This document shows, in pieces, positions 2,828-24,294 of a DNA stretch of 36,750 nt. Origin of the DNA: Candidatus Adlerbacteria bacterium (GTDB taxonomy: Bacteria > Patescibacteriota > Minisyncoccia > Phycocordibacterales > SBAW01); the NCBI GenBank assembly GCA_043734325.1, contig JAYTFN010000017.1:1-36750 (forward strand), read 5' to 3'. A program made the translations under genes and the position numbers. Under the pieces are notes generated by a model. It did no database searches. It saw nothing but the letters and a program-made list of their open reading frames with translations, and was not told where the DNA came from. The number at the start of each line of letters is the position of its first letter. The first letter of the stretch is position 1.

Positions 2828-3193
2828 ATGCCAAAAAAAATTTTGATCGTTGAAGATGAGAAAGCACTTGCGACAGTGCTCAATTTAAAACTCAAAAGTG
2901 CCGGATTTGAAACTAAAGTCGTGTACAACGGCGACGACGCTGTCGCCTCTTTAAAAGAAGCACCTTTTGACCTTATGCTTATTGACATAATGATGCCAAA
3001 GCGCGACGGCTTCAGCGTTCTGGATGAACTTAAGAAACAAGGAAATACTACATCAATATTCGTCATGTCAAATCTTGGACAAACAGAAGACATTGCACAC
3101 ATTAAAAGCCTGGGGGTTACAGACTACATTATTAAAGCAGACACCTCCCCTGCAGAAATCTTAGATAAAATAAACGCTTTTTTTAAAAAATAA
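2828..3193 (+). CDS. Receiver-only (CheY-like) response regulator
   Basis: MPKKILIVEDE...DLMLIDIMMPKRDGF...SNLGQ...K pattern with the phospho-acceptor Asp context. No output domain. I trimmed the start to the ATG at 2828 inside the longer ORF 2732..3193. Confidence 0.85.
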   Translation: MPKKILIVEDEKALATVLNLKLKSAGFETKVVYNGDDAVASLKEAPFDLMLIDIMMPKRDGFSVLDELKKQGNTTSIFVMSNLGQTEDIAHIKSLGVTDYIIKADTSPAEILDKINAFFKK

Positions 3194-3210
3194 AACAGGA
3201 CGTACACTAA

Positions 3211-4935: not shown

Positions 4936-5975
4936 TGGCAAAAGAAAGCGATTTTTTCCTCGAAAATTTAAGCCTCCTCATGCATTCCGCACTTCCGGTG
5001 CGGGAAGCAGTTTCGACATTAAAAGAAGAAATTCATGGCAAAAAAATGCTGAAGGCTATTACTATTATTGAAAGTGAAATAGACTCTGGCTCGAAAATGT
5101 CCACTGCACTCGGTAAAAGTGGTTTGATGTCCGAGCGTTTTGTAGCGCTCCTCCGACTTGGGGAAGATACCGGCGAACTTGAAAAACAACTTGCTTTGGT
5201 TGTTGAGGAGCAAAAAAAAGAAAATCGCCTTAAGTCTAAAGTGCGGGGTGCACTTATTTACCCGGCGATAGTTATCACGGTGACTATATTTGTAGGTATT
5301 TTTACCATGTGGTACGTCTTCCCGCGTCTGACTTCTGTTTTTGCAAGCTCGGGCGGTACACTTCCTTTATCCACACGAGTCATCATGGGCATTGGTACGT
5401 TCCTCACTTCCTACGGCATATTTGTCGTGCCGCTCGGGACCGCAGCGGTTATTGGAGGAATCTATATATTATTTTTTTATGAAAAAACTAGATTTATCGG
5501 CGAAACATTCCTCATTCGTTTTGCGCTTACCCGAACACTGGTACAAGACATCGAACTTGCCCGATTTGGGTATGTTATGGGTTCCTTGCTTCATGCGGGT
5601 ATCACTTTGCCCCAGGCGCTTTCTTCAATGAAGGATTCAACTTCATTTCATTTATACAAAAAGTTTTATGAAAGTATTTTAAAAGATGTAACAGAAGGCA
5701 ACTCCTTGTATAAAAGTATTGAAAAATATCCAAACGCACACATATATATTCCCTCGTACCTATCGAGACTTGTCTCAGCGGGCGAGATGTCTGGCTCACT
5801 TTCCGACACCCTGCTTAACATCGGTTCGACCTATGAAGAAAAAACCGAGAACATGGCGCAGAATCTCAGCGTCATGCTTGAACCGATAATTATGGTTGTT
5901 GTCGGTATTATCGTTGCCTTTCTTGCTATAGCAATCATCTCACCTATCTATGGCCTCACCAACCAGATTAAATAA
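4935..5975 (+). CDS. pilC: Type IV pilus platform protein (PilC/GspF family)
   Basis: Duplicated T2SSF-type architecture with 3 TM segments. The ATG overlaps the pilB stop by 1 nt. Confidence 0.9.
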   Translation: MAKESDFFLENLSLLMHSALPVREAVSTLKEEIHGKKMLKAITIIESEIDSGSKMSTALGKSGLMSERFVALLRLGEDTGELEKQLALVVEEQKKENRLKSKVRGALIYPAIVITVTIFVGIFTMWYVFPRLTSVFASSGGTLPLSTRVIMGIGTFLTSYGIFVVPLGTAAVIGGIYILFFYEKTRFIGETFLIRFALTRTLVQDIELARFGYVMGSLLHAGITLPQALSSMKDSTSFHLYKKFYESILKDVTEGNSLYKSIEKYPNAHIYIPSYLSRLVSAGEMSGSLSDTLLNIGSTYEEKTENMAQNLSVMLEPIIMVVVGIIVAFLAIAIISPIYGLTNQIK

Positions 5976-6414
5976 TCGAAAGGGAGGGGGACAAGGCTTT
6001 ACGTTTATAGAGCTACTCGTAGTGGTTGCTATTATAACATTGCTTACCGCCGCAGCCGAACCCAGCTATCGCACGTTCGTAACGCAAATCGAAACGCAAA
6101 ACACTTCGACTGTATATGTACAAATGCTGCGGCGCGCAGGAGCACTCGCCCAAGCGGGAAACGGCGACTCACCTTGGGGAGTAGTGCTCGGGACGAGCTC
6201 TATCACGCTATTCAAGGGAACGACGTTTATCACTCGGGATTCCATGTATGATGAGACCTATATACCAAACATCCGTATTGCCGTTTCCGGCCTGACTGAA
6301 ATAGATTTTGCCACCACAACAGGTTTACCCAACAAGTTCGGCACCACAACTATATCCTCCGGACCCCAGACAGCGACCATCACCATCAATGCAAAAGGAA
6401 TTGTCACATATTAA
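5950..6414 (+). CDS. Prepilin-type (pseudo)pilin
   Basis: N-terminal cleavage/methylation motif G|FTFIELLVVVAIITLL. The start is uncertain because it overlaps the pilC end. Confidence 0.75.
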   Translation: MASPTRLNNRKGGGQGFTFIELLVVVAIITLLTAAAEPSYRTFVTQIETQNTSTVYVQMLRRAGALAQAGNGDSPWGVVLGTSSITLFKGTTFITRDSMYDETYIPNIRIAVSGLTEIDFATTTGLPNKFGTTTISSGPQTATITINAKGIVTY

Positions 6415-7237
6415 AAAGAGCGTAGGCCTGCCCACTCGCAAGCATGGTTTCTCGCTTATAGAAGTAATAATATCCTCCGCGCTCGTGTTATTGCTTGCGA
6501 CACTTTTTACAAACGCGATACTTTCCGGCCAAGAAGGAGCCGTGATAAGCGGTGCCCAAACGCGCGCAAACCTAGTCGCAGAAGAAGGTCTTGAAGCGGT
6601 GCGCAATATGCGCGACAGCACGTTTATCAATGTAATAGACGGAACGTACGGCATTGGACAGGTAAACGGTACCTGGACACTCGTAGGCACCAGCGATATT
6701 GTCGACATCTACACGCGCAGTGTAACCATACAAACAGTAGACCCATCTACCAAGCAAGTAACGAGCACGGTCAGCTGGAGTAAAAATGGTCAGCGCAGTG
6801 GCACAGTCTCACTGGTCACCTACCTCACTGACACGAGCCTTTTGGTACCGCAAATCAAAAAATTACAGGTTGATATTTCAGGGGGTCATATCAGTGCTAA
6901 CACTCGCCTTGTCGGGATAAAAATAAAAAATATTGGCTCCACCCCAATCACCCTCAGTACAACCACTGTGGCGTGGGTAGGCGGCAGCGCTACAACTTTA
7001 AACGAGATAGACATTACCGGCGGAGCGGTTTGGTCTGGTGTCGGTCCCGGCTATCCATTAGCCAACCAGCCATCCGGCGGTTCAGAAGGTTTGCTGGCGG
7101 TTGTTATATCGCCCAATTCTGCGAAACCAATAAACAACTTTGTATTCAATGCAAATATTCACGGCGCATATTTTATCATCAGCTTCATCATGTCTGACAA
7201 TTCATCTACCACAATAACCACACCCGTCTTTCCATGA
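6389..7237 (+). CDS. Prepilin-type minor pilin with a large C-terminal domain
   Basis: KHG|FSLIEVIISSALVLL motif. I trimmed the start to the ATG at 6389, since the ORF-track start at 6308 overlaps the previous pilin. Confidence 0.7.
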   Translation: MQKELSHIKKSVGLPTRKHGFSLIEVIISSALVLLLATLFTNAILSGQEGAVISGAQTRANLVAEEGLEAVRNMRDSTFINVIDGTYGIGQVNGTWTLVGTSDIVDIYTRSVTIQTVDPSTKQVTSTVSWSKNGQRSGTVSLVTYLTDTSLLVPQIKKLQVDISGGHISANTRLVGIKIKNIGSTPITLSTTTVAWVGGSATTLNEIDITGGAVWSGVGPGYPLANQPSGGSEGLLAVVISPNSAKPINNFVFNANIHGAYFIISFIMSDNSSTTITTPVFP

Positions 7238-7752
7238 CCCACTCAATGCATAAAAAAGGATTTACTTTTATCGAGCTACTTGTCTATATCGCCATTATAA
7301 CGGTCCTTTTGACGATGATTATCAGTCTTTATTTTGCGCTTGCCCGCTCTCGCCAAAAACAGCAATCCACGATGGAAGTGGAGCAGCAGGGCTATGCGGC
7401 AATGTCTATCTTGACCCAAACGATTCGAAATGCACAAACCGTTTCAACCCCTTCCCCCACCGCGTCGTCGAGCTCGCTTGCACTTGTGACATATACCGCA
7501 AGTACGTCGCCCACCGTCTTTAGGCTTACCGCGTCCAGTCTTGAGATAACTGAAGGCTCCAGCACGCCAGTCTGGCTCACCAGCCCGCAAGTAGTGGTCA
7601 GTAACTTATTATTTTTAAATCTTGCAGCATCCACCACAGAAGGCAGCGTCCGTATACAGTTCACCATCTCGCACGCAACGACAAGCGACCGGTATGACAC
7701 AAATTACTCGACTACCTTTTACGGGACAGCGACCGTCCGCAATATTCAATAA
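7234..7752 (+). CDS. Prepilin-type minor pilin
   Basis: KKG|FTFIELLVYIAIITVLL motif. A 4-nt ATGA overlap with the upstream gene. Confidence 0.75.
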   Translation: MTHSMHKKGFTFIELLVYIAIITVLLTMIISLYFALARSRQKQQSTMEVEQQGYAAMSILTQTIRNAQTVSTPSPTASSSSLALVTYTASTSPTVFRLTASSLEITEGSSTPVWLTSPQVVVSNLLFLNLAASTTEGSVRIQFTISHATTSDRYDTNYSTTFYGTATVRNIQ

Positions 7753-7754
7753 GT

Positions 7755-8126
7755 ATGAACCAAGGATTTGCCATGCTCCTGTCAGTGCTGATTTTAGCCG
7801 CTATCGGTATGTTTATTTCGACAACACTACTTATACTCAGTGTGTCTGCAGCGCAAACAACAGGCTCATTACAAGAGTCACAGCAAGCTCGCGCGCTTGC
7901 TAGTGCATGCGTCGAAAAAGGGTTGCAGCAACTAATAACTCTAAACACGTACACCGGCAGCGGTTCGCAAACGTTAGGTCTAGGAACTTGCACATACACC
8001 GTCTCTACCATCGACCCGTACAACGATTCAGTAGTGGGCGTCGGCACCGTAGGCCAAACAACTAGGCGCGCCAAGGCGATTATATATATTTCACAGCTCT
8101 TGGTCACCTCTTGGCAAGAAATATAG
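7755..8126 (+). CDS. PilX-like minor pilin (hydrophobic N-terminus, no Glu5)
   Basis: MNQG|FAMLLSVLILAAIGMFI. Its position within the pilin operon supports the call. Confidence 0.55.
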   Translation: MNQGFAMLLSVLILAAIGMFISTTLLILSVSAAQTTGSLQESQQARALASACVEKGLQQLITLNTYTGSGSQTLGLGTCTYTVSTIDPYNDSVVGVGTVGQTTRRAKAIIYISQLLVTSWQEI

Positions 8127-8151
8127 ACTTTGGTACCGTATACTATATAAC

Positions 8152-8580
8152 ATGAAACTGAGAGGCTTTTCCTTTATAGAACTGATCATAGTGATAGCAA
8201 TCATAGGCATACTTTCGACAGTACTTAGTGTCTCTGTTGGGAGTATTCGTCAGCGTGCGCGTAATGCACAGCGTGCGACCGACATCTCTTCGATACTTAA
8301 TGCGGTCTACCAATATGCGTTGGACAACGATAACCAAGTGCCGCTAGCCATCACCACCGCCACCACTACCATCTGCCGCACCACTGCACCTTCGTGCACA
8401 GGGTTTATCAACCTCTCTACACTTACGACAAATCAAAAATACCTGATCGCGATACCAACAGACCCTTTAAGCACCTCCACATCAAACACAAACTACACAA
8501 TAGTTAAAAATGCCATTGGGCGCATTACCGTCTCGGCTCCAAATGCCGAAGCAAGTACGACCATAAGTATTACTCGGTAA
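8152..8580 (+). CDS. Type IV pilin with a short leader; candidate major pilin
   Basis: MKLRG|FSFIELIIVIAIIGIL; a Cys pair (ICRTTAPSC); separated from the upstream pilin genes by its own 25-nt spacer. Confidence 0.75.
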   Translation: MKLRGFSFIELIIVIAIIGILSTVLSVSVGSIRQRARNAQRATDISSILNAVYQYALDNDNQVPLAITTATTTICRTTAPSCTGFINLSTLTTNQKYLIAIPTDPLSTSTSNTNYTIVKNAIGRITVSAPNAEASTTISITR

Positions 8581-10240
8581 TCAAGACAGGGCTTTTTATA
8601 AGAGCGTCACTTTCGGTTTGCACAAGTAACGGAAATTCGACTATAAAACTGGAACCCTTCCCTAACCCTTTGGACTCAAGATGTATAGTTCCTTTGTGCG
8701 CTTCAACGAAGGTTTTAACTATGAACAACCCAAGTCCTGACCCGGCTCCGTTGATCACTTTTGCGTTATCGCCTCGCACAAATTTCTCAAATAGTTTATT
8801 ACCTGTTTCAGGATCCATTCCGATACCGGTGTCTTGTATCTCGATTCGAACTTTCTTCTCAAGTGGGACTTTGCGCAACATAACAGTAATACCTCCTTGT
8901 GGCGTGTACTTCATTGCGTTATCTATAAGATTACTGATGACTTGCGTAAGCTTACTTGCGTCTGCCCAGACCATAACCGTTTCGACTCCGATAGCAAGTG
9001 TCAGGGTTAGACCTTTTTGACGTAAGCCCGGCTCAAGCTGCAAGGCAGTAATGCGCACCAGCTCAACTATATTAGTAGGCACAAATCGATATTCCATTCT
9101 CCCCTGCTCAATCCGAGACACGTTGAGATAATCATTTATAAAAAGCGCCATCATAGAACTTTCGTCAGAAATAGTTTGAATTGGATCTTTCAGCTCCTGA
9201 GGTAAATCACCAAACGTTCCGTCCAAAATCCCCCCCGCACTCCATTTTATAGCGGTCAGGGGTGTGCGTAGTTGGTGGGAAGCGAAAGAAAGAAACTCAT
9301 TTTTTTGCGTATCCATTTCTTGCAGTCGTAAATTTGTTTTCTCAAGCTCCTTCTCTTGCTTTTGTATGAGTTCGTGCGACTTAATTTCACTCGCTGTCCT
9401 CTTGATAAGCAAGATGTCAAAGATAAGGACGAGGACAAATATTCCAGAGCGCAGCGCAAGTTCGAAAAATGTTGTTGAAAAAAGTATTTGCAAAAGCGTT
9501 GCAAGTACCATTACGAACGAGAATAATTCTGTCACCACAATACGAGCATTAAATAATCCGTACCGGGCGATAGCGTATCCCGTGCATACAATGAACGGAA
9601 GAATGAACACAGAGCCTAGAGGAATGAAGGCGTATATATTAAATGCCACCGGAAGTATGAAATTGCAGATAATAAGAAGCGCGAATGTAGTGATAGTTCC
9701 ACCCACAATTAGCCCATATTGCATTCGCAGGATGCCTCTTGCCTGAACCATGCGCTTAAGGAACATATATATTGCGCCGCCCACTAACCCTACGATTGTA
9801 AGGCCAAACACTCCAATAAGTGGACCATTAACGATAGGCGGTATAGATCCTTGGAGTGGAGTCGATCGAAAGGTTGCGAACACTAAAGGCGTTAACGTGA
9901 GGAATGACACTGCCGTAACCGAAGGGATAATAAACCATATATAGCGCACTCCAAATACTGGCCGCTCCTGCGGGAAAATTCTCGCTAAATGAAAAATACC
10001 GAAACAAAACCATACGGCCGTAAAAATAACCAACCGCCACATCCAGAGGCTCAGCTCGAAGGATTCCACCTGTGTGCTTGTATAGTTGAGCACTCCCCAC
10101 ACGCCACCAAGAAGCGAGAACCCTAAAAAAGCACGGTTCGTCGCACTCTGTGGATTATTAAAATATACTATAAAGCCAAGAACGCCGGTACTTGCAACCG
10201 CAAGTCCTAAAATAAGTAGATCAACGTATTGTACAGTCAT
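8570..10240 (-). CDS. Sensor histidine kinase with a polytopic (about 7-8 TM) N-terminal domain
   Basis: H-box FLSFASHQLRTPLTAI; N-box NLIDNAMKYT; G-boxes DTGIGM and GSGLGL; a long hydrophobic N-terminal half. Confidence 0.85.
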   Translation of the reverse strand: MTVQYVDLLILGLAVASTGVLGFIVYFNNPQSATNRAFLGFSLLGGVWGVLNYTSTQVESFELSLWMWRLVIFTAVWFCFGIFHLARIFPQERPVFGVRYIWFIIPSVTAVSFLTLTPLVFATFRSTPLQGSIPPIVNGPLIGVFGLTIVGLVGGAIYMFLKRMVQARGILRMQYGLIVGGTITTFALLIICNFILPVAFNIYAFIPLGSVFILPFIVCTGYAIARYGLFNARIVVTELFSFVMVLATLLQILFSTTFFELALRSGIFVLVLIFDILLIKRTASEIKSHELIQKQEKELEKTNLRLQEMDTQKNEFLSFASHQLRTPLTAIKWSAGGILDGTFGDLPQELKDPIQTISDESSMMALFINDYLNVSRIEQGRMEYRFVPTNIVELVRITALQLEPGLRQKGLTLTLAIGVETVMVWADASKLTQVISNLIDNAMKYTPQGGITVMLRKVPLEKKVRIEIQDTGIGMDPETGNKLFEKFVRGDNAKVINGAGSGLGLFIVKTFVEAHKGTIHLESKGLGKGSSFIVEFPLLVQTESDALIKSPVLITE

Positions 10241-11310
10241 TACATTAAGCGTTCTTCAAGAGTATACCGAGTTGCACGCGCACTTGGGGATTCCCCGTAC
10301 CCAATGCGAAACATACAGGTAACCACTTCACGCTTATTGGTAAGCATACTATAAAGTGTTTCAATTTGTGTGTGAATTAAACTTTTTTCATGCGTAGAAA
10401 ATGCTTCCGGATGGGCTTTATGCGCAAAATCCAGAAAGATGGTGCCTGTCAGTACTTGCATCTCTACACCTAAAGAAGTGGCAGTGAGCCATATCCTTTG
10501 AAGTGTTCGCCCCGTTGCTACGAAATCTTGCGGCGTATCGCCTCGTGTAGTTAGTAATCCGAACTCTGCTGCGGAAAAATTTGTTGCCGCATTGGCTTTT
10601 TGCACCACTTTAGGAAAGCCCAGAGCAATACATACTTTCATAACACTCCAATGACGTATGAGTTTAAACAAACCGCGCACCGGCATCGGTAGCTCGAGTG
10701 TACGAATAAAAAAGCCAACCTTCTTTTTCGCATCCTCTTCTATACTCCACGTTAGATGACTGAAGAAAAACTGGTGCAAAGATTTATTTTGAAGCATCAC
10801 CTCTTCGTTAGTGGCGCCGACAACCGCCATAGCGTACATTTGTTGCGGTGAGGTAATTCTTTTATACAAAACAGTTGCACCAAGCGTTTGTACGGCAGCA
10901 CTAAGTGCAGCTTCGTGTTCGGGTTTGAGGGGTTCTTTTTTATACGGTTTGCGATTGGAAGTTCTTACGGGGATACACTCGTATAGTTTTATATCTTCAA
11001 TATTTTTTGCAGCATGTGGAGTAAGTATGATTGACGCAATAGGCTCACCATTACCCGGTCTTGGAAAAAGTGTGACTGAGGCGCGGTACCCTGTCGCCGA
11101 CGCTGCGATACAGATATTTTCAATAGCTGCGCCGTGCGCGACATACGACCCTCGGTTCGAGTCATTATATAAAGACAAGTCGCTTGCTTCATCATTGTAC
11201 AGTTCTATCGTGTTGCCGTGTACTGAAAATTTCCACGGCTGGGAATTCTCTCCAGACGGTGCTTGAAGAGCAGCTTCAAGGATAGTTTGTATGTGTGACT
11301 CTAGATTCAT
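10240..11310 (-). CDS. Tandem nitroreductase-fold FMN oxidoreductase (Acg/Rv1355c-C-terminal type)
   Basis: N-terminal LEAALQAPSGENSQPWKF motif. At 356 aa it is about twice a single nitroreductase domain. ATGA overlap with the upstream ThiF-like gene. Confidence 0.75.
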   Translation of the reverse strand: MNLESHIQTILEAALQAPSGENSQPWKFSVHGNTIELYNDEASDLSLYNDSNRGSYVAHGAAIENICIAASATGYRASVTLFPRPGNGEPIASIILTPHAAKNIEDIKLYECIPVRTSNRKPYKKEPLKPEHEAALSAAVQTLGATVLYKRITSPQQMYAMAVVGATNEEVMLQNKSLHQFFFSHLTWSIEEDAKKKVGFFIRTLELPMPVRGLFKLIRHWSVMKVCIALGFPKVVQKANAATNFSAAEFGLLTTRGDTPQDFVATGRTLQRIWLTATSLGVEMQVLTGTIFLDFAHKAHPEAFSTHEKSLIHTQIETLYSMLTNKREVVTCMFRIGYGESPSARATRYTLEERLM

Positions 11311-12488
11311 AAGCCAAAAAGCGAGGCAAACTTTTGAGATGCCAACGCACGGACTTCGACTTCACTCGGGTCAAGGTAGCCAGGGTCGAGCTTTTCATCA
11401 AGAGAAACGAGAGCGCGATTCTTCTCTATCGACTGACCGTTAAGTATTTTCCTAATAGTGTACGCCACGGCTGCACCATTAATGAGTGCCGCACCGCCCA
11501 GCTGCGGCCACGACACAATAGTCTTCCCCATTTCAAGTAATGATTCTTGCATTTTAATAGTCACGTTTTCCGGACCGATATGCTGGGTAATAGTGCGACC
11601 GATGCCGAATTTATCGAGCTTAGAGAGCTCTTCATAAGTAACATCGCCCAGACGGCCGTGAAAAAAAGCAAGATTTGGGTCTAGGTCGTATCGCTCTACG
11701 TCCACCACTGCGTTGTCTCCATTGTCTGCACCCATAACAACAGGGATACCGCGCTTCTTTGCCTCCTGTCGAATAAGATACTTCACCGCAAGGTTATCGA
11801 GCTCGTCGACAACGATGTCGAGGCCGTCAAAGAAGGTCCCAATATTTTCGGGATTGAGTCCGTCGGTAAACAATTCAATATGCGCAAATGGGTTTATTTC
11901 GTATATCCGCTTGGCGCACATCTCGACTTTCAAAACTCCAAGATTATCCACCCCCATCAAAATTCTATTTGTATTAGAGAGCGCAAGACGATCCATATCC
12001 GCAAGTTTGATGCGCTTTGCCGCACCTTGGAGCACCAGCGCGAACGCAACACTGGAGCCAACGCTTAAACCACCGATACCTACGGTCGAATTGTAGAATT
12101 TCTCCTGCTCTTCTTTGCTTATAAGGTTCCGGTTGCGAGCGGTTCGTACCAACTGGAAGTCTTCTTCTTGGAGTATGTGCGAAAGCGTTGAGCTCCACGG
12201 AAAGTACACCCAGTGACCCTGTTTCCAAAGAGGCGCGTCCGCCTGCAATTTTTCGAAATGCACTTTAAAGAGTTGTTTAAAATCGAGAGTGTACACGAGT
12301 GTCGGATTGTTAACGCCGAAAAGCTCTAGAAGTTCCTCTTCGTAGTCGTCACGCACGTGCCGGACAGCGCCCTCTTCAAATAGTTGCTCAAGCTTTTTTT
12401 GGTCAACATCGCTTGATAATGTAAAAAAAACTGGCACCGGTGCATATTGACTCTCAAGCCCTTTTTGTATTCGTGTGTGTACTGGCAT
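11307..12488 (-). CDS. ThiF/MoeB/HesA-family E1-like adenylyltransferase (Rv1355c-N-terminal type)
   Basis: Rossmann motif VGIGGLSVGSSVAF...KLADMDRLALSNTNR followed by DIVVDELDN, typical of the E1-like fold. The protein has a ~130 aa N-terminal extension. Confidence 0.8.
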   Translation of the reverse strand: MPVHTRIQKGLESQYAPVPVFFTLSSDVDQKKLEQLFEEGAVRHVRDDYEEELLELFGVNNPTLVYTLDFKQLFKVHFEKLQADAPLWKQGHWVYFPWSSTLSHILQEEDFQLVRTARNRNLISKEEQEKFYNSTVGIGGLSVGSSVAFALVLQGAAKRIKLADMDRLALSNTNRILMGVDNLGVLKVEMCAKRIYEINPFAHIELFTDGLNPENIGTFFDGLDIVVDELDNLAVKYLIRQEAKKRGIPVVMGADNGDNAVVDVERYDLDPNLAFFHGRLGDVTYEELSKLDKFGIGRTITQHIGPENVTIKMQESLLEMGKTIVSWPQLGGAALINGAAVAYTIRKILNGQSIEKNRALVSLDEKLDPGYLDPSEVEVRALASQKFASLFGL

Positions 12489-12502
12489 ATAAAAGTAAAA
12501 TA

Positions 12503-14020
12503 TTAATTACTATCTTTCACCACCCATTTTTGCTTAATGGTCGCTTTGAAATATTTCTCGTCGCCATGCGGCCAGAACACTACCTGGGGTACCACCTTAT
12601 CCCCCATGCTTGCATAATTATTTCGATATTCACTGTTCTTCAACAGGAGATTAGCTTTCGTAATTTCTTGGATAGTTTTTACTAGCTCCGGTGACGCCTC
12701 TCCATTTTGTCGCAGCTCAACATTCAATTCCAAAAATTGGTCTTGGTTTTCATCTATACGGGTGTGCATCGTGAACTTGCCGGTAATATCCATAAGCAAC
12801 ACATCCTCCTGCAGGGCTTCTCTAATATGCTCGGGATACATGATTGCTCCGTACAGCTTTGTCGAAAAGTCTGCTCGCTCATATACATAGACAAACGGCA
12901 GTCGATAGAGTGGCACGTTGGCTTCCTCAAGCTTTGTACTCAACTCATTCCCGTGCAATACACTAACGTTTTGTGCCTCGTCAAATGTCATCACGCCCCC
13001 TTGGTCGCCTACCTCATAGCGGATGAGCGGGAGCGTGTTATAGCCAGTCAGAAGAATTTCACCATTATGCGCTTCGAAGTTCGTAAAGAGCGGGTTATAT
13101 TGCGCGAGCGTCGGGGTTTTTTCTATTGGGCCGAAAAGCGAAAAGAAGAGCTTTTCATCCTCAAGCGCTTGGCGTCGCAGGAATATGGATGTCGGGGTTT
13201 CATATGCCATAGCACCAATATCAGCGGTGCCGTAAATGTTGAGCGTGTCAAGGTATGGGTTTTCAGTACCGGTCATACGCATCAGATGGTCGCGGAACTT
13301 TTCGTTGAATCCTTCGGCAGCAAAAAGCATACGAATGTTATGTTCGCGAAGCGATATACCCGACAACATCGCCTCATCCAGCACGTCTTTTACGAACGGC
13401 GGATATCCGATAACAATAGTTTGCTTATAGTTCGGCGCGAGGTCGCGAAGCGCATGCAAAATCTCCCCCTTATTCAACCCTGGTGTCAGTATGGAAATAT
13501 TCTTGCCACGCAAACTCGCGAGCTGGAACGCCTGGTAGGTAAAGAGTCCTCCTATCCACACGCCCATACCAAAGGTAATGAGTACGAGCGTTGGCCCTTC
13601 TCTTCCTTCGCGCATGCCGTTTTCTAAAAAGAGTTCAGCGAGAACCGAATACTGCCAGTCGAGCTCGTTGTCATGCGGAAAATAAAAGGGCTTTCCTGTA
13701 GAGCCTGACGTGGCGGCATATACCAGTGGTTTCTCCAGTGTGCCGTCCCAGCACAAAGAGGCAAGTGGGTACGTACGTAGATAGTTGTTTTTATTGGTCA
13801 CCGGCACCTCTTTAAAATGCGCAGGTGTCGTGATGTGCGAAGGGTCGATACGGTGCTTGTGCAAAAAATCCTTGTAAGCCGGAATACGCTCCGCCGCAGC
13901 ATGGAACAACCCCAGCATATTTTCTTCTTGCAGCTTTGCCCACTTTTTAGAGTCATTTTCTCGGATCATTTGCAAAACCTTTTGCGCAGTATATTTTTTA
14001 CTTGGTGGTAGGTATTCCAT
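12503..14020 (-). CDS. PaaK / coenzyme F390 synthetase-like adenylate-forming enzyme
   Basis: P-loop-like ATSGSTGKPFYFP motif, which matches the PaaK/F390 synthetase/CapK family. The YGTADIG motif and the 505-aa length also fit. Confidence 0.7.
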   Translation of the reverse strand: MEYLPPSKKYTAQKVLQMIRENDSKKWAKLQEENMLGLFHAAAERIPAYKDFLHKHRIDPSHITTPAHFKEVPVTNKNNYLRTYPLASLCWDGTLEKPLVYAATSGSTGKPFYFPHDNELDWQYSVLAELFLENGMREGREGPTLVLITFGMGVWIGGLFTYQAFQLASLRGKNISILTPGLNKGEILHALRDLAPNYKQTIVIGYPPFVKDVLDEAMLSGISLREHNIRMLFAAEGFNEKFRDHLMRMTGTENPYLDTLNIYGTADIGAMAYETPTSIFLRRQALEDEKLFFSLFGPIEKTPTLAQYNPLFTNFEAHNGEILLTGYNTLPLIRYEVGDQGGVMTFDEAQNVSVLHGNELSTKLEEANVPLYRLPFVYVYERADFSTKLYGAIMYPEHIREALQEDVLLMDITGKFTMHTRIDENQDQFLELNVELRQNGEASPELVKTIQEITKANLLLKNSEYRNNYASMGDKVVPQVVFWPHGDEKYFKATIKQKWVVKDSN

Positions 14021-14028
14021 ATAAAGTA

Positions 14029-15108
14029 TTACTTTGTTCGATTATTTGTTTTCTTAAATCGTTTTTCCGCAATGGCGTCTGCTATTTCATTTGTAGGTAT
14101 ATTGCTAATACGCGACTGAGCCAAAATTTCCTTTACAGTCACTTTTATGTGCTGAATATGGTCAGTCACGCGCGGCTCGCTATAGCCACCTTCGTGCAAT
14201 TCGTCCACTACGTTTATAAGACCGCCTGCGTTCGCGACGTAGTCTGGGACGTATAGAATCTTGCGCTTATGTAGGCGCGCACCATCCTTTGCTGTAGAAA
14301 GTTGATTATTTGCCGAACCGCACACAATAGCGCACCCTAACTCTGGAATCGTTTTTTGATTGAACTCGTCTCCCAAAGCACACGGAACAAAGACATCAAC
14401 CTTTTGCATATGAATGCGTGTGTGCGGCACGATGCGAATGTCGGGGAACAACGTACGGGCCGCGCTTGTGCGCTTAGGATCAATATCTGCCACAACAAGA
14501 GTGCCGCCTTTGGCGCTTATCAAAGCGCAAAGCTCTTTGCCGACATTTCCTAATCCTTTAACCGCGAACGACCTTCCAACAAAAGTCTCGTTGCCAAATT
14601 TCTCCCCAAGTGACGCTTCGATAGAAATACAGACGGAAATCGCAGCATAGCGCGCCGGCATGCCACCGATTTTTGGACGTCCAATGATAAAGTCGGAGTG
14701 TTGCGACAAAAGGGCAATATCACTTTCGTCGATACCGACATCCTCACCCGTAAAAAAATGACCGCCCAGTAAATTGAGGCGATTGGCATATGCAATAAGC
14801 AATGCGCGTTTCTGACTTTGAGTTATATTTTTGGGTGCCATGAGCACTGCTTTACCCCCGCCGAACGGCACGCTCCCCATCGCACATTTGTAGGTCATCG
14901 CACGAGAGAGTCGTAAAGCATCGGTAAGCGCCTCATTTTCATCTTTGTAGTAACGCAGTCGAGTGCCTCCGACCGCAGGACCAAGCATATTGTTATGAAT
15001 TGCGATAAAACCCCGCAGCCCGGTTTCGATGTCACACAGAAACACGACCGCAACATGGTCTTTGTGTTCGACATGCTTTTTAAAATAGGAAATTTCTGTT
15101 AGAGCCAT
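14029..15108 (-). CDS. Leu/Phe/Val-type NAD-dependent amino-acid dehydrogenase
   Basis: GPAVGGTRLRYY and catalytic-Lys motif FGGGKAVL; dinucleotide fold VKGLGNVGKEL; 359 aa. Confidence 0.85.
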   Translation of the reverse strand: MALTEISYFKKHVEHKDHVAVVFLCDIETGLRGFIAIHNNMLGPAVGGTRLRYYKDENEALTDALRLSRAMTYKCAMGSVPFGGGKAVLMAPKNITQSQKRALLIAYANRLNLLGGHFFTGEDVGIDESDIALLSQHSDFIIGRPKIGGMPARYAAISVCISIEASLGEKFGNETFVGRSFAVKGLGNVGKELCALISAKGGTLVVADIDPKRTSAARTLFPDIRIVPHTRIHMQKVDVFVPCALGDEFNQKTIPELGCAIVCGSANNQLSTAKDGARLHKRKILYVPDYVANAGGLINVVDELHEGGYSEPRVTDHIQHIKVTVKEILAQSRISNIPTNEIADAIAEKRFKKTNNRTK

Positions 15109-15120
15109 AATTTCTAGTAA

Positions 15121-15498
15121 TTATACAAGCGACTCATGCACCCGGTCTACCACTTGCTCAAGTGTGTAGTTTGCCTTTACCAGGTAAAAAATGGGTTCGT
15201 GCTTCTCTATTGCCTCTACAATATCCTTTGTATCCGGACTAAGATTAGTTAGTAAGATAACCGGAACCTTCTTGCCGTACGCCGTGTCCTTTCGCAATTC
15301 TTGCAACATGAGAAGCCCATTATGCGGCATCATAACATCAAGCAAAATAAGATGTGGTTTTTTATTAAGTGCAATTATCAATGCCTCATTTCCATCGGAA
15401 GCCGATAACACAGTAAAACCTTCTTTGATCAGTTTCTTTTCTAATATTTTTCGAAGCACTGTTTCATCTTCGACAACCAACACCGTTTTTTGGTCCAT
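15121..15498 (-). CDS. Receiver-only response regulator (first gene of the operon)
   Basis: MDQKTVLVVEDE...LILLDVMMPHNGL...TNL...K. I trimmed the start to the ATG at 15498. Confidence 0.85.
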   Translation of the reverse strand: MDQKTVLVVEDETVLRKILEKKLIKEGFTVLSASDGNEALIIALNKKPHLILLDVMMPHNGLLMLQELRKDTAYGKKVPVILLTNLSPDTKDIVEAIEKHEPIFYLVKANYTLEQVVDRVHESLV

Positions 15499-15582
15499 GT
15501 GTTTGTTATTATTTAAATACAGTACTGAATTCCATACGTATAAATATACCACGTATCATTAAAATCCCTTTACATAAACGTG

Positions 15583-15654
15583 TGCCCCCGAGAGGAATCG
15601 AACCTCTATAGCCGGCTTAGAAGTCCGGAGTTCTATCCATTAAACTACGAGGGC
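15583..15654 (-). tRNA. tRNA-Arg (anticodon UCU)
   Basis: Hand-folded cloverleaf: acceptor GCCCTCG/CGGGGGC, T-arm AGAGG-TTCGATT-CCTCT, anticodon loop CTTCTAA. There is one A-G mismatch at the base of the anticodon stem. Confidence 0.8.
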
Positions 15655-15706
15655 AAGTCGCACTACATTACTATCCAAAGCACGTGTACAATACCATTAT
15701 CACTCT

Positions 15707-16201
15707 ATGATGACCAGATTGTTTAAACGAAAGGTGTGGCACGAATTGTTTGAAGCTGGAGTTGCGCTTAAGGGTATTAATAGTGTATGGCAAATACTTG
15801 GCGGCCTTTTCCTACTTACCCGACTCCACTCGTGGCTTGAATACATATTAGTCTTTTTTAGCCGACACCAACTGCTTGGCGGCCCCGAAGATTTCCTTTT
15901 TAGCTTCGTCAGTTCGCAAATTCATCGCCTCGACATCGTCAGCGTCCGCACTTTTGTTGGCGCATATCTTCTCTTTCATGGCATTTTAAATGCGTTCTTA
16001 GCGTACAACCTCTATCGCAACAGACTGTGGTCCTACCCCGTCATGATGATGTTCATCATAATATTTTTGGTGTATCAGTCATACCGACTTGTCCATACGT
16101 TCTCACTCACTCTTTTGTTTATTACTATATTCGACATTGCGTTCCTAGTCCTTACCTGGCATGAGTATAAAGCGCAAAAAGAAAAACTAGCGCGCTCGTG
16201 A
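15707..16201 (+). CDS. Small 4-TM membrane protein (DUF2127-like)
   Basis: Hydrophobicity pattern and the N-terminal WHELFEAGVALKGINSVWQILGG motif. The family assignment comes from memory of the pattern only. Confidence 0.55.
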   Translation: MMTRLFKRKVWHELFEAGVALKGINSVWQILGGLFLLTRLHSWLEYILVFFSRHQLLGGPEDFLFSFVSSQIHRLDIVSVRTFVGAYLLFHGILNAFLAYNLYRNRLWSYPVMMMFIIIFLVYQSYRLVHTFSLTLLFITIFDIAFLVLTWHEYKAQKEKLARS

Positions 16202-16519
16202 CCCGACAGGAGCAGTGGACTCAAAAAGATGCAGTTGCTCTCCTTCGCTCCCTCCTGTAGCCAAAATCATAGCCTGGCTCTCGAGCCCCATAATAGACCG
16301 CGGCTCTACATTAGTCGCGAAAGCACATTTTTTACTTACTAAAAGCGCTGTGTCGGGAAAATGTTTCGCTATACCCGACACCACTTGACGCTCTTCACTC
16401 CCGAAATTTACGCGAAGTTTGAGCAGTTTTTCTGACCCCAAAACCGGCTCAGCTGAAAGAATCTCGCCCACACGAATTTCTACTTTTTTAAAATCATCAA
16501 TTGAAATGAGCTCGTCCAT
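16187..16519 (-). CDS. tRNA-binding domain protein (CsaA/Trbp111/EMAP-like OB fold)
   Basis: FKKVEIRVGEILSAEPV...KLLKLRVNFG...RQVVSGI is the characteristic pattern of this tRNA-binding domain. Confidence 0.75.
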   Translation of the reverse strand: MDELISIDDFKKVEIRVGEILSAEPVLGSEKLLKLRVNFGSEERQVVSGIAKHFPDTALLVSKKCAFATNVEPRSIMGLESQAMILATGGSEGEQLHLFESTAPVGSRAR

Positions 16520-17068: not shown

Positions 17069-17485
17069 ATGGAGTGGACAGAGGAACAAGTCGCCCTCCT
17101 GAAGGTTTTATGGCCGAAGAGCCTCTCGGCTACTGAAATAGGCAAACAGCTAGGCGTAACTAAAAATGCTATTATAAGTAAGGGAGGGCGACTTGGTCTA
17201 CCCCCTCGCCCCTCACCCAAAAGGAGAAGGTCACATACTACATACAGAGCGCCTACTCTGACCCGACTCTCGAATAAGGCAGTAACATTTTCTGCAATGG
17301 GCCCGGGAGCCGTTCATGAACTAGCAGTAGGTCGACCATCCGTCCGAAAGCCTGAACTTTGTTGCTGGCCTATAGGAGATCCTGGTACTAAAAGTTTCCA
17401 CAGTTGCAAGGCCACGGCTGAACCAAGAAAACCTTATTGCACAGAACATCAAGCGGAGGCGCATCTACAAAAACCTAAGGGTTGA
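17069..17485 (+). CDS. GcrA-like cell-cycle regulator family protein
   Basis: N-terminal W-TEEQVALLKVLW...SATEIGKQLGVTKNAIISKGGRLGL HTH; C-terminal CCWPIGDPGTKSFHSC...PYCTEH Cys-rich motif. Both are hallmarks of GcrA. Confidence 0.7.
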   Translation: MEWTEEQVALLKVLWPKSLSATEIGKQLGVTKNAIISKGGRLGLPPRPSPKRRRSHTTYRAPTLTRLSNKAVTFSAMGPGAVHELAVGRPSVRKPELCCWPIGDPGTKSFHSCKATAEPRKPYCTEHQAEAHLQKPKG

Positions 17486-21284: not shown

Positions 21285-21389
21285 ATTTTTTTCTAACCTT
21301 AGTTTTCCACAGCTTCATTGATTTTTAAGAGGAAAAAGGTATTATATTGGTATGGGCTTTGCCCCGGGGTTCGCGTATGCGAGCCGGCA

Positions 21390-23392: not shown

Positions 23393-23393
23393 A

Positions 23394-24293: not shown

Positions 24294-24294
24294 A

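What the first reader, a model, noticed from the sequence alone, without database searches (positions are those of the whole stretch)
8570..15498. Six-gene operon: a two-component pair brackets an amino-acid dehydrogenase, a PaaK-like adenylase, an E1-like ThiF protein and a tandem nitroreductase
The minus-strand gene order is receiver-only RR (15498), Leu/Phe dehydrogenase, PaaK/F390-synthetase-like adenylate-forming enzyme, ThiF/E1-like protein, tandem Acg-type nitroreductase and polytopic histidine kinase (ends 8570). The junctions are 12, 8 and 14 nt, then a 4-nt ATGA overlap and a 1-nt TAATG overlap, so this is almost certainly one transcript. I know of no characterised pathway that combines these four enzyme families. 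Two separate carboxylate-adenylating enzymes plus an FMN oxidoreductase and a 2-oxoacid/amino-acid interconverting dehydrogenase suggest synthesis or modification of an amino-acid-derived small molecule, or of a protein/peptide C-terminus. The embedding within a sensor kinase/regulator pair suggests signal-controlled production or self-sensing. In an organism that otherwise looks biosynthetically poor, this stands out.
Basis: partly seen in the sequence, partly recalled or inferred. Interest (0 to 1): 0.75.

Follow-up and report, generated by a model that had tools for sequence, protein, structure and literature searches.

The report
Sensor-linked oxazolone-like pathway in CPR bacteria
This six-gene operon, conserved across hundreds of tiny "candidate phyla radiation" bacteria, most likely makes an oxazolone-type small molecule from amino acids with a previously undescribed enzyme set, and it is always linked to a membrane sensor kinase, which hints at chemical signalling in organisms thought to make almost nothing.

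Summary
In detail: six co-directional genes with the stated junctions. The claim that no characterised pathway fits is only partly right. The ThiF-like gene and the tandem nitroreductase are together a split homologue of Rv1355c/TrzS. TrzS is the ThiF-cyclase/flavin-oxidase "oxazolone synthetase" (OxzB, TyzBC, TrzS; 2021-2025) that converts N-acyl amino acids into oxazolones.

Three things are new:
- The usual acyl-CoA N-acyltransferase is absent. A divergent PaaK-fold adenylase sits in its place.
- An amino-acid/2-oxo-acid enzyme lies upstream. It is a Leu/Phe/Trp-type dehydrogenase, replaced in some genomes by class IV or class I/II aminotransferases.
- A HisKA_7TM polytopic kinase and receiver-only regulators are co-conserved.

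The adenylase-ThiF-nitroreductase-kinase core is present in 43 of 50 informative Patescibacteria genome loci. ThiF-anchored metagenome loci carry the adenylase in 51 of 53 cases. Natural fusions exist: dehydrogenase-adenylase, adenylase-ThiF, ThiF-adenylase and dehydrogenase-adenylase-ThiF.

Best reading: signal-linked synthesis of an oxazolone-type metabolite, with the adenylase making the N-acyl amino acid. The product, the adenylase chemistry and the kinase's ligand are inferred. I rate it a new variant of a known kind. I found no paper describing it.

The parts
15121..15498 (-). Receiver-only response regulator (125 aa, no output domain)
   Evidence: Pfam Response_reg 6.4e-17 is the only domain. 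Homologous stand-alone receivers of about 130 aa, in 1-3 copies, lie at the head of the module in 34 of 80 related loci.
14029..15108 (-). NAD-type Leu/Phe/Trp-family amino-acid dehydrogenase (amino acid <-> 2-oxo acid)
   Evidence: Both ELFV domains are present. Best solved relatives are LeuDH 3vpx at 2.4e-73 and TrpDH 5b37 at 7.7e-70. The best NCBIfam hit is ScyB Trp DH, 295 bits, below the 600 cut-off. Conserved in 43 homologues: K74 and K86 invariant, pocket G121 43/43, pocket L297 42/43, acidic residue at 208 in 41/43 (D38, E3). It lies directly upstream of the adenylase in 30 of 71 loci. In other loci it is replaced by class IV or class I/II aminotransferases. It is fused to the adenylase in P0134 and P0188.
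12503..14020 (-). Divergent PaaK-fold adenylate-forming enzyme; proposed N-acyl-amino-acid-forming ligase
   Evidence: No Pfam hit; weak NCBIfam PaaK hit, 49 bits against a cut-off of 646. The AF2 model has pLDDT 85. Top Foldseek hits are PaaK1 2y27 (TMt 0.77-0.81) and BT_0428, then ClxA and HCL, then GH3 and McbA amide synthetases. ANL-type motifs are invariant: TSGSTGxP, YGxA, RYxxGD, RxD, K496. The family has 504 clusters at E<=1e-30. It sits next to ThiF in 49 of 50 loci.
11307..12488 (-). TrzS/Rv1355c-type ThiF-like ATP-dependent cyclase (N-terminal half of a split oxazolone synthetase)
   Evidence: NCBIfam NF005901 'Rv1355c family' 1.7e-97, model positions 7-345 of 722; other ThiF models score 1e-22 or worse. 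It is 41% identical to residues 70-347 of a Rhodococcus Rv1355c-family protein. The ATP and adenylation residues are invariant in 70 homologues: G140, G144, D164, D166, N172, N174, R175, K187, D231. The best solved relative is TcdA, the t6A cyclodehydratase.
10240..11310 (-). Acg-type tandem nitroreductase-fold flavin-dependent oxidase (FDO; C-terminal half of the split synthetase)
   Evidence: NF005901 positions 374-717, 8.7e-52; NF011424 (a ThiF-NTR fusion family) 9.4e-59; Acg family 1.6e-50. It is 25% identical to residues 388-656 of the Rhodococcus fusion. The AF2 model (pLDDT 94.9) has 2ymv (Acg homologue) as top hit, TMq 0.72. It overlaps the ThiF stop codon by 4 nt.
8570..10240 (-). Polytopic (about 8 TM, HisKA_7TM-type) sensor histidine kinase
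   Evidence: HisKA plus HATPase_c, with a weak HisKA_7TM hit. Homologues carry PF16927. There are about 8 hydrophobic segments with short loops. It is present in 45 of 50 loci and stays last in the module even where the enzyme genes are reshuffled.
15582..15654 (-). tRNA-Arg(UCU) immediately upstream on the same strand (possible shared transcription start; membership uncertain)
   Evidence: ARAGORN and Rfam both find it. A weak promoter-like match lies just upstream at 15725-15696.

Best explanation
The operon is a Patescibacteria-wide module for making an oxazolone (azlactone)-type small molecule from amino-acid building blocks. It is genetically coupled to a membrane-embedded sensor kinase and CheY-like receivers. 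The proposed steps follow the gene order.

(1) The NAD-type dehydrogenase, or an aminotransferase in other genomes, interconverts a bulky hydrophobic or aromatic amino acid and its 2-oxo acid. I favour deamination, which would supply the acyl donor. This step is inferred.

(2) The PaaK-fold adenylase activates that acid (or a derived acid) and makes an N-acyl amino acid. It thereby replaces the acyl-CoA N-acyltransferase OxzA/TyzA/TrzA of the known pathways, either directly as ClxA, NatL2 and GH3 do, or via CoA. This step is inferred.

(3) The ThiF-like enzyme adenylates the N-acyl amino acid carboxylate, and the amide oxygen closes the 5(4H)-oxazolone ring. This step rests on homology to TrzS/TyzB/OxzB.

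(4) The Acg-type flavoenzyme desaturates C-alpha/C-beta. This step rests on homology to the FDO domain of TrzS, to TyzC and to OxzB.

(5) The HisKA_7TM kinase and the receiver-only regulators tie production or perception of the compound to a phosphorelay whose output is not transcriptional. This is inferred from co-conservation.
For: Split TrzS:
- The ThiF gene hits the Rv1355c-family model at 1.7e-97 over positions 7-345. The nitroreductase hits the same model at positions 374-717 (8.7e-52).
- The summed bits (327+176) exceed the model's cut-off of 476.
- Both are colinear with a Rhodococcus Rv1355c-family fusion, at 41% and 25% identity.
- The adenylation residues, including D231, are invariant. 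D231 aligns with the Asp of the ECD motif in the Rhodococcus homologue.
- The FDO model matches Acg 2ymv, the same nearest structure reported for the TrzS FDO domain.

Conservation:
- The core is complete in 43 of 50 genome loci.
- Anchored on ThiF instead, the adenylase is present in 51 of 53 metagenome loci.
- Flanking genes are unrelated housekeeping genes.
- Module membership is kept when gene order is shuffled.

Rosetta-stone fusions, seen on real contigs:
- AADH-adenylase (9 contigs).
- AADH-adenylase-ThiF (two independent assemblies).
- ThiF-adenylase, each next to an FDO gene and a HisKA_7TM HK.
- Adenylase-ThiF (P0146) by domain scan only.

Other support:
- The dehydrogenase is displaced by two aminotransferase classes, which fixes that step as amino acid/2-oxo acid interconversion.
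- No TrzA- or GNAT-type acyltransferase is found in the modules of 80 loci; the sole GNAT hit lies outside the module.
- PaaK-fold enzymes that form amides without CoA exist, namely ClxA and NatL2.
Against: - No product is known.
- The amide-forming role of the adenylase is purely inferential. Its nearest structures are CoA ligases.
- The FDO scores almost equally against the TrzS-type, PRK14851-type and generic Acg models (176, 199 and 172 bits).
- The residue aligned with R540 of the Rhodococcus homologue is Glu169. The numbering was not verified against the mutated M. smegmatis enzyme.
- Known FDOs of this pathway use O2, whereas many CPR bacteria are anaerobes.
- 23 of 71 loci with enough upstream flank have no dehydrogenase or aminotransferase nearby.
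- The kinase link rests on synteny only.
- The regulators have no output domain, so no target is known.
Confidence: 0.6

Rival explanations
1. The same four enzymes act together, but the product is not an oxazolone. The ThiF-activated carboxylate could be captured by another nucleophile, giving for example a pyrazinone, a diketopiperazine-like or imidazolone ring, or an activated acyl transfer to another molecule. The flavoenzyme would then oxidise or reduce that product.
For: The acyl-transferase step of the known pathway is missing. The adenylase family is new, with no Pfam model. The FDO is only 25% identical to the TrzS-type domain and is not discriminated from generic Acg proteins. A 2-oxo-acid-forming enzyme has no role in the known oxazolone pathways.
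Against: The ThiF-like protein belongs specifically to the Rv1355c/TrzS clade (1.7e-97, against 1e-22 or worse for other ThiF families). It keeps the clade's N-terminal signature. Every characterised member of this ThiF+FDO pairing makes oxazolones.
Confidence: 0.2
2. Modification of a protein or peptide C-terminus. This would be E1-like activation of a ubiquitin-like or sulfur-carrier protein, or a RiPP-type cyclodehydration/dehydrogenation as in TOMM, MccB or PaaA systems.
For: ThiF/E1 enzymes classically adenylate protein C-termini. Nitroreductase-fold dehydrogenases partner E1-like proteins in azole-peptide synthesis. Generic E1 domain hits appear.
Against: No conserved small ORF (beta-grasp or precursor peptide) and no YcaO gene is found in 160 loci. 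The ThiF has a single, non-conserved Cys and no CxxC motifs. The tight 8-14 nt junctions leave no room for a peptide gene. E1-E2 defence models score only 4e-10.
Confidence: 0.06
3. A catabolic route for aromatic or branched-chain amino acids: amino acid -> 2-oxo acid -> aryl/alkyl-acetate -> CoA thioester via a PaaK-type ligase. The ThiF and nitroreductase genes would be unrelated passengers.
For: LeuDH/PheDH-type NAD enzymes are usually catabolic. Sources annotate the adenylase as phenylacetate-CoA ligase.
Against: No paa ring-oxidation genes, indolepyruvate oxidoreductase genes or decarboxylase genes are found in any locus. The adenylase is only 16-18% identical to PaaK and far below the equivalog cut-off. 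It is physically fused to ThiF in some genomes. It is almost never found without ThiF.
Confidence: 0.04
4. Chance juxtaposition of unrelated genes, or an E1-type anti-phage defence island.
For: A type I restriction-modification system lies 3 kb away. There are weak PADLOC E1-E2 hits.
Against: The module is conserved in 43 of 50 and 51 of 53 loci with different flanks, and there are gene fusions. The restriction system is not conserved next to it. No E2, JAB or CD-NTase partners are present.
Confidence: 0.01

Closest known systems
Oxazolone synthetases: OxzAB (Pseudoalteromonas rubra), TyzACB and TrzAS/Rv1356c-Rv1355c (Mycobacterium tuberculosis and relatives)
   Same: A ThiF-like ATP-dependent cyclase works with an Acg-type flavin-dependent oxidase, encoded adjacent or fused. 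The window's two proteins align colinearly with the fused Rv1355c family, and the adenylation residues are kept. Oxazolones have been proposed, but not shown, to be signals.
   Different: There is no OxzA/TyzA/TrzA acyl-CoA N-acyltransferase. A PaaK-fold adenylase and an amino-acid dehydrogenase or aminotransferase sit upstream instead. The module is co-conserved with a 7TM histidine kinase and receiver-only regulators. The hosts are Patescibacteria rather than Proteobacteria or Actinomycetota.
ClxA / NatL2 (benzoxazole pathways) and GH3 acyl-acid amido synthetases
   Same: These are PaaK-fold or ANL-fold adenylases that transfer the acyl-adenylate to an amine without CoA. ClxA is among the structural hits, and GH3 and McbA follow further down.
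   Different: Sequence identity is only about 12-18%. The window enzyme's nearest structures are true CoA ligases (PaaK1, BT_0428). No acceptor site can be assigned.
PaaK phenylacetate-CoA ligase
   Same: The overall fold matches (TMt 0.77-0.81) and the ANL motifs are present.
   Different: It scores 49 bits against a 646-bit equivalog cut-off. It is about 70 residues longer, has no paa catabolic context, and is linked or fused to ThiF.
TcdA (tRNA t6A cyclodehydratase)
   Same: It is the best solved sequence relative of the ThiF-like protein (1.5e-13). It uses the same chemistry: carboxylate adenylation followed by intramolecular ring closure.
   Different: Its substrate is tRNA-bound t6A. It lacks the TrzS-type N-terminal region and has no FDO partner.
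Autoinducer synthase + polytopic sensor kinase clusters (Vibrio CqsA/CqsS, LuxM/LuxN; Legionella LqsA-LqsR-LqsS) - comparison from general knowledge
   Same: The architecture is alike: small-molecule biosynthetic genes are encoded next to a multi-TM histidine kinase that lacks a periplasmic domain, with an atypical response regulator.
   Different: There is no sequence homology of the synthase or the sensor domain to those systems (one search shows kinase-core similarity only). Ligand sensing is untested here.
Leu/Phe/Trp dehydrogenases (LeuDH, PheDH, ScyB/NpTrpDH)
   Same: It is full-length ELFV family with catalytic lysines and an NAD-type acidic residue.
   Different: Pocket residues G121 and L297 differ from the Ala/Val of LeuDH seen in the alignments. 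From memory, they resemble PheDH. The ScyB equivalog cut-off is not met. In some genomes the protein is fused to the adenylase.

Membership tests
Oxazolone synthetase (OxzB / TyzB+TyzC / TrzS) | ThiF-like cyclase of the Rv1355c/TrzS clade | tested here: met
   NF005901 at 1.7e-97 over model positions 7-345. 41% identity to a Rhodococcus Rv1355c-family protein.
Oxazolone synthetase (OxzB / TyzB+TyzC / TrzS) | Intact ATP-binding and adenylation motif (Asp equivalent to TrzS D217) | tested here: met
   G140, G144, D164, D166, N172, N174, R175, K187 and D231 are invariant in 70 homologues. D231 aligns with the ECD motif Asp of the Rhodococcus homologue. The role of D217 is described.
Oxazolone synthetase (OxzB / TyzB+TyzC / TrzS) | Acg-type flavin-dependent oxidase fused or adjacent to the cyclase | tested here: met
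   NF005901 positions 374-717 at 8.7e-52. 4-nt overlap with ThiF. The model matches 2ymv. Adjacent in 44 of 50 loci.
Oxazolone synthetase (OxzB / TyzB+TyzC / TrzS) | FDO substrate-pocket residues (TrzS R540, Q651) | tested here: inconclusive
   I had no M. smegmatis sequence. The residue aligned with R540 of the Rhodococcus homologue's own numbering is E169.
Oxazolone synthetase (OxzB / TyzB+TyzC / TrzS) | [quoted passage not shown] | tested here: not met
   A TrzA-like query gave no tblastn hit in 80 loci at E<=0.01. A Streptomyces GNAT query gave one hit, outside the module (L068, 4.4e-6). No such conserved ORF cluster exists.
Oxazolone synthetase (OxzB / TyzB+TyzC / TrzS) | Product is an N-acyl oxazolone | not testable with these tools
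   This requires expression and LC-MS.
PaaK phenylacetate-CoA ligase | Equivalog-level sequence match | tested here: not met
   TIGR02155 scores 49 bits against a cut-off of 646. Identity to PaaK structures is 16-18%.
PaaK phenylacetate-CoA ligase | PaaK fold and ANL adenylation motifs | tested here: met
   Foldseek hit to 2y27, E 7.9e-21, TMt 0.77-0.81. Invariant motifs are listed.
PaaK phenylacetate-CoA ligase | paa catabolic gene context | tested here: not met
   Neighbours are ThiF, FDO, HK and housekeeping genes.
E1 / ThiF-MoeB protein-adenylating enzymes | Beta-grasp substrate gene, catalytic Cys or CxxC zinc site | tested here: not met
   No conserved small ORF. The protein has one non-conserved Cys and no CxxC.
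TOMM/RiPP cyclodehydratase-dehydrogenase | YcaO partner and precursor peptide | tested here: not met
   Absent from all loci.
Leu/Phe/Trp dehydrogenase (ELFV) | Both ELFV domains and catalytic lysines | tested here: met
   (K74 and K86 are invariant).
Leu/Phe/Trp dehydrogenase (ELFV) | Assignable substrate specificity | tested here: inconclusive
   The ScyB model scores 295 bits against a cut-off of 600. LeuDH and TrpDH score nearly equally. The G121/L297 pocket is not LeuDH-like. The PheDH comparison is from memory.
Synthase-linked quorum-sensing kinase systems (Cqs/Lqs/LuxMN type) | Biosynthetic genes clustered with a polytopic sensor kinase | tested here: met
   The HK is present in 45 of 50 loci and is retained through rearrangements. 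It has about 8 TM segments.
Synthase-linked quorum-sensing kinase systems (Cqs/Lqs/LuxMN type) | Kinase responds to the cluster's product; homology to known synthases or sensors | not testable with these tools
   No homology was detected beyond the kinase core. Ligand response needs experiment.

The most novel reading that the evidence does not exclude
The module is a self-contained cell-cell (or symbiont-host) signalling system native to CPR/Patescibacteria. A four-enzyme route builds an oxazolone-type autoinducer entirely from scavenged amino acids, with no fatty-acyl-CoA needed. The co-encoded HisKA_7TM kinase is its cognate membrane receptor. CheY-like receivers relay the signal to non-transcriptional outputs such as type IV pili. 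The enzyme subtypes and multi-copy modules would then represent signal 'dialects'.
Probability: 0.3. Interest if true: 0.9.

Novelty: new variant of a known kind. Interest (0 to 1): 0.72.

Why it matters
CPR/Patescibacteria are regarded as metabolically minimal episymbionts with almost no secondary metabolism and very few regulators. Here a dedicated small-molecule pathway is permanently coupled to one of their few sensor kinases. It was found in at least 372 loci in a collection holding one genome per species, and the adenylase family comprises about 500 clusters at 50% identity. That would give a concrete, testable handle on how these organisms sense kin or hosts.

It also widens oxazolone biosynthesis beyond Proteobacteria and Actinomycetota. 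It suggests a CoA-independent way to make the N-acyl amino acid precursor. And it supplies the first genetic link between an oxazolone-type pathway and a signalling protein, which addresses the open question of what oxazolones are for.

Tried and rejected
- The promoter and terminator scan of 8000-16300 found fewer sites than in shuffled sequence, so it is uninformative.
- The Rfam scan found only tRNAs and no riboswitch in the leader.
- A PADLOC scan gave only generic E1 and HATPase hits, so I rejected a defence reading.
- A word-indexed search with the kinase's TM region returned only 4 hits, which is too few to profile the sensor family.
I redid it with database homologues.
- I could not obtain the M. 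smegmatis TrzS sequence, so R540 and Q651 could not be mapped reliably.
- The literature check for the PheDH G124/L307 specificity pair did not retrieve the primary source. That comparison stays marked as from memory.
- Accessory ORF clusters near the module turned out to be housekeeping genes and were excluded. They include DnaK/DnaJ, aminoacyl-tRNA synthetases, RF, BipA, L25, L31, L19, MetK and FBA.
- Homologues outside CPR do not reproduce the module. Nonomuraea has a 36%-identical adenylase next to a different HK/RR but no ThiF or FDO. Gemmatirosa has a 26%-identical adenylase with a weak NTR-like neighbour.

Full report
**Observation.**
- The junctions are 12, 8 and 14 nt, then an ATGA overlap and a TAATG overlap.
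- The same gene calls appear on the public contig that contains this window, an ENA metagenome scaffold of 56 kb.
- Family assignments are confirmed: a receiver-only regulator; a Glu/Leu/Phe/Val-family dehydrogenase; a ThiF-family protein; an Acg-type nitroreductase; and a HisKA/HATPase_c kinase with about eight hydrophobic segments and short loops.
- The "PaaK-like" protein has no Pfam hit and only a 49-bit match to the PaaK equivalog, whose cut-off is 646.
- Its AlphaFold model (pLDDT 85) nevertheless matches PaaK1, BT_0428, ClxA and 2-hydroxyisobutyryl-CoA ligase best. GH3 and McbA amide synthetases come further down.
- The nitroreductase model (pLDDT 94.9) matches the full-length Acg homologue 2ymv. 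It matches single-domain nitroreductases over only half its length, so "tandem Acg-type" is right.

**What the enzyme pair is.** The decisive result is.
- The ThiF-like protein hits NCBIfam NF005901, "Rv1355c family protein", at 1.7e-97 over model positions 7-345 of 722. Ordinary ThiF, MoeB and TcdA models score 1e-22 or worse.
- The nitroreductase hits positions 374-717 of the same model at 8.7e-52.
- The two genes are therefore a split version of Rv1355c.
- Against a plasmid-borne Rv1355c-family protein from Rhodococcus qingshengii, the two window proteins align colinearly. ThiF is 41% identical to residues 70-347, and the nitroreductase is 25% identical to residues 388-656.
- Rv1355c is TrzS. 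Kleetz et al. (JBC 2025, PMC12856293) showed that it carries out ATP-dependent cyclisation and O2-dependent desaturation of N-acyl-tryptophan to an N-acyl tryptazolone.
- The split TyzB/TyzC pair (Grigg et al. 2023, PMC10404671) and fused OxzB (de Rond et al., bioRxiv 10.1101/2020.06.11.147165) do the same with N-acyl-Tyr and N-acyl-Phe.
- In 70 CPR homologues the nucleotide-binding and adenylation residues of the ThiF-like protein are invariant. These include D231, which aligns with the motif Asp of the Rhodococcus protein; the equivalent D217A variant kills TrzS cyclase activity.
- The protein has no CxxC motifs and no conserved cysteine.
- Its best solved relative is TcdA, which performs the same adenylate-then-cyclise chemistry on t6A.

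**What is different from the known pathway.**
- In every described oxazolone cluster the substrate is supplied by an acyl-CoA-dependent N-acyltransferase (OxzA, TyzA or TrzA).
- None is present here or in the module of any of 80 related loci.
- Instead, the gene immediately upstream of ThiF is the divergent PaaK-fold adenylase.
- Upstream of that lies an enzyme that interconverts an amino acid and its 2-oxo acid.

**Conservation.**
- A scan of one genome per GTDB species found 372 loci encoding a relative of the adenylase. All of the best 80 are from Patescibacteria: Adler-, Kaiser-, Lipton-, Harrison-, Wolfe-, Brenner-, Wildermuth-, Nomura- and Magasanikbacteria, among others.
- I clustered all ORFs of these loci. 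Of the 50 loci with at least 5.5 kb downstream, 49 have ThiF, 44 the nitroreductase, 45 the kinase and 43 all three, always on the same strand.
- Two of the apparent misses are a frameshifted ThiF and a nitroreductase seen only by tblastn.
- Anchoring instead on ThiF in metagenome contigs, 51 of 53 loci with room carry the adenylase, and in 45 it lies directly upstream.
- Flanking genes differ from locus to locus and are housekeeping genes.
- Where the enzyme genes are reshuffled (for example L017, L030, L039, L046, L060), membership is kept. Wherever a kinase gene lies on the contig, it stays last among the module's enzyme and kinase genes; in L039 a receiver gene follows it.
- Stand-alone receivers of about 130 aa, in one to three copies, are found near the module, mostly upstream, in 34 of 80 loci.

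**The upstream step.**
- The dehydrogenase lies directly upstream of the adenylase in 30 of 71 loci and within 8 kb in 40.
- In other loci the same position is taken by a class IV aminotransferase or a class I/II aminotransferase.
- This non-orthologous displacement fixes the step as amino acid/2-oxo acid interconversion.
- The dehydrogenase keeps both catalytic lysines. It has an acidic residue at the end of beta-2, typical of NAD enzymes.
- Its side-chain pocket carries Gly121 (43/43) and Leu297 (42/43), where the LeuDH sequences aligned have Ala and Val.
- From memory, Gly/Leu is the PheDH pattern, which would favour a bulky or aromatic substrate. I could not confirm this from the library.

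**Fusions.** An exhaustive HMMER search found 504 clusters of the adenylase family at E<=1e-30. Among the top hits are four natural fusion architectures:
- Dehydrogenase-adenylase (P0134). It occurs on nine contigs, including an NCBI assembly.
- Adenylase-ThiF (P0146).
- ThiF-adenylase (P0218). It sits beside a nitroreductase, an alpha/beta-hydrolase and a HisKA_7TM kinase.
- Dehydrogenase-adenylase-ThiF (P0188, 1242 aa). It occurs identically in two independent assemblies.

For the three fusions whose contigs I examined (P0134, P0188, P0218), a nitroreductase gene lies beside the fusion and a HisKA_7TM kinase gene downstream. Together with the ThiF-FDO fusion in TrzS, these link all four enzymes in the order of the window's genes.

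**Mechanism.**

*By homology (well supported):* the ThiF-like enzyme adenylates a carboxylate and closes a ring, and the flavoenzyme then oxidises the product.

*Inferred:*
- The substrate is an N-acyl amino acid made by the adenylase, which stands in for the missing acyltransferase. PaaK-fold enzymes that couple an acyl-adenylate to an amine without CoA are known, namely ClxA and NatL2 (PMC12519233).
- The dehydrogenase or aminotransferase turns a scavenged amino acid into the 2-oxo acid that serves as, or gives rise to, the acyl donor. This would make sense in organisms without fatty-acyl-CoA pools. The reverse direction, supplying the amine acceptor, cannot be excluded.
- The kinase is functionally coupled to the product. 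Its regulators have no DNA-binding domain, so the output is probably not transcription of the operon.

Rough confidence in each level:

| Claim | Confidence |
|---|---|
| ThiF + FDO are a split TrzS-type enzyme inside a conserved module | about 0.9 |
| The product is an oxazolone | about 0.55-0.6 |
| The adenylase makes the N-acyl amino acid | about 0.5 |
| The kinase senses the product (a quorum-sensing-like circuit) | about 0.3 |

**Rivals.**
- A non-oxazolone product from the same enzymes is the main alternative (0.2).
- Protein or peptide C-terminal modification is unlikely. There is no beta-grasp or precursor ORF, no YcaO, no catalytic Cys and no space in the junctions.
- A catabolic Phe/Leu route is contradicted by the missing downstream genes and by the fusions to ThiF.
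- A defence island is contradicted by PADLOC and by the non-conserved restriction-system neighbour.
- Chance juxtaposition is excluded by the synteny and the fusions.

**Novelty.**
- The two oxazolone papers do not mention Patescibacteria, a ligase or a kinase.
- The following searches found nothing relevant: oxazolone + Patescibacteria; ThiF + nitroreductase + phenylacetate-CoA ligase; Patescibacteria + quorum sensing + autoinducer + histidine kinase; and ThiF + nitroreductase + Candidate Phyla Radiation.
- I therefore class it as a new variant of a known kind. The cyclase/oxidase core is known. The precursor-supply enzymes are new, and so is the conserved coupling to a 7TM kinase, in a lineage where neither was expected.

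Noticed in passing
window 15582-15654 (-): tRNA-Arg(UCU) lies on the same strand, 83 nt upstream of the regulator's ATG. A weak promoter-like match (15725-15696) sits just upstream of the tRNA, so the operon may be transcribed with or behind the tRNA.
   Followed up: partly
window 2828-8580 (+): A type IV pilus-like operon: receiver-only regulator, PilB-like ATPase, PilC-like platform protein and five pilin-like ORFs. It converges on the kinase gene and overlaps its end by 11 nt. Its receiver is 32% identical to the operon's receiver. This adjacency recurs only in L003 and L046.
   Followed up: partly
window 17069-17485 (+): An ORF with a GcrA cell-cycle regulator domain (PF07750), an alphaproteobacterial-type regulator, in a CPR genome.
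   Followed up: no
window 18369-26004 (-): A type I restriction-modification cluster: HsdR (971 aa), a DUF3800 protein, an HsdS-like protein and further ORFs. It is not conserved next to the module in other genomes.
   Followed up: no
L027 and L075 (same MAG, JBBTRX01); L056: One genome carries at least three adenylase-ThiF modules of different subtypes. L056 has three tandem paralogues of the 7TM kinase after the enzymes. This suggests diversification of the system.
   Followed up: partly
L167, L168, L169, L170, L036, L137, L141, L149: A subtype of the module has an alpha/beta-hydrolase (Abhydrolase_1, about 291 aa) between the enzymes and the kinase. It could be a product-hydrolysing or tailoring enzyme.
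   Followed up: partly
L085 (Nonomuraea gerenzanensis) 6693-10365: A 36%-identical member of the adenylase family sits directly after a HisKA_3 kinase and a LuxR-type regulator in an actinomycete, without ThiF or nitroreductase. This is a second, independent adenylase/two-component association.
   Followed up: partly
L083 (Streptomyces plasmid) 6914-8712: A split TrzS-like ThiF (36% identical to the window's) overlaps a GNAT gene and follows a MerR regulator, with no flavoenzyme nearby. This is another variant of the cyclase context.
   Followed up: no
L086 (Gemmatirosa kalamazoonensis plasmid) 6709-9362: A 26%-identical adenylase homologue is preceded by an ORF with weak nitroreductase-like similarity (E 7e-5) and no Pfam hit.
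   Followed up: partly
window 10240-11310, residue 169: The nearly invariant Asn168-Glu169 of the CPR flavoenzymes aligns with Asp-Arg540 (own numbering) of the Rhodococcus TrzS homologue. If this is the Arg whose mutation blocks desaturation in M. smegmatis TrzS, the CPR substrate pocket differs in charge.
   Followed up: partly
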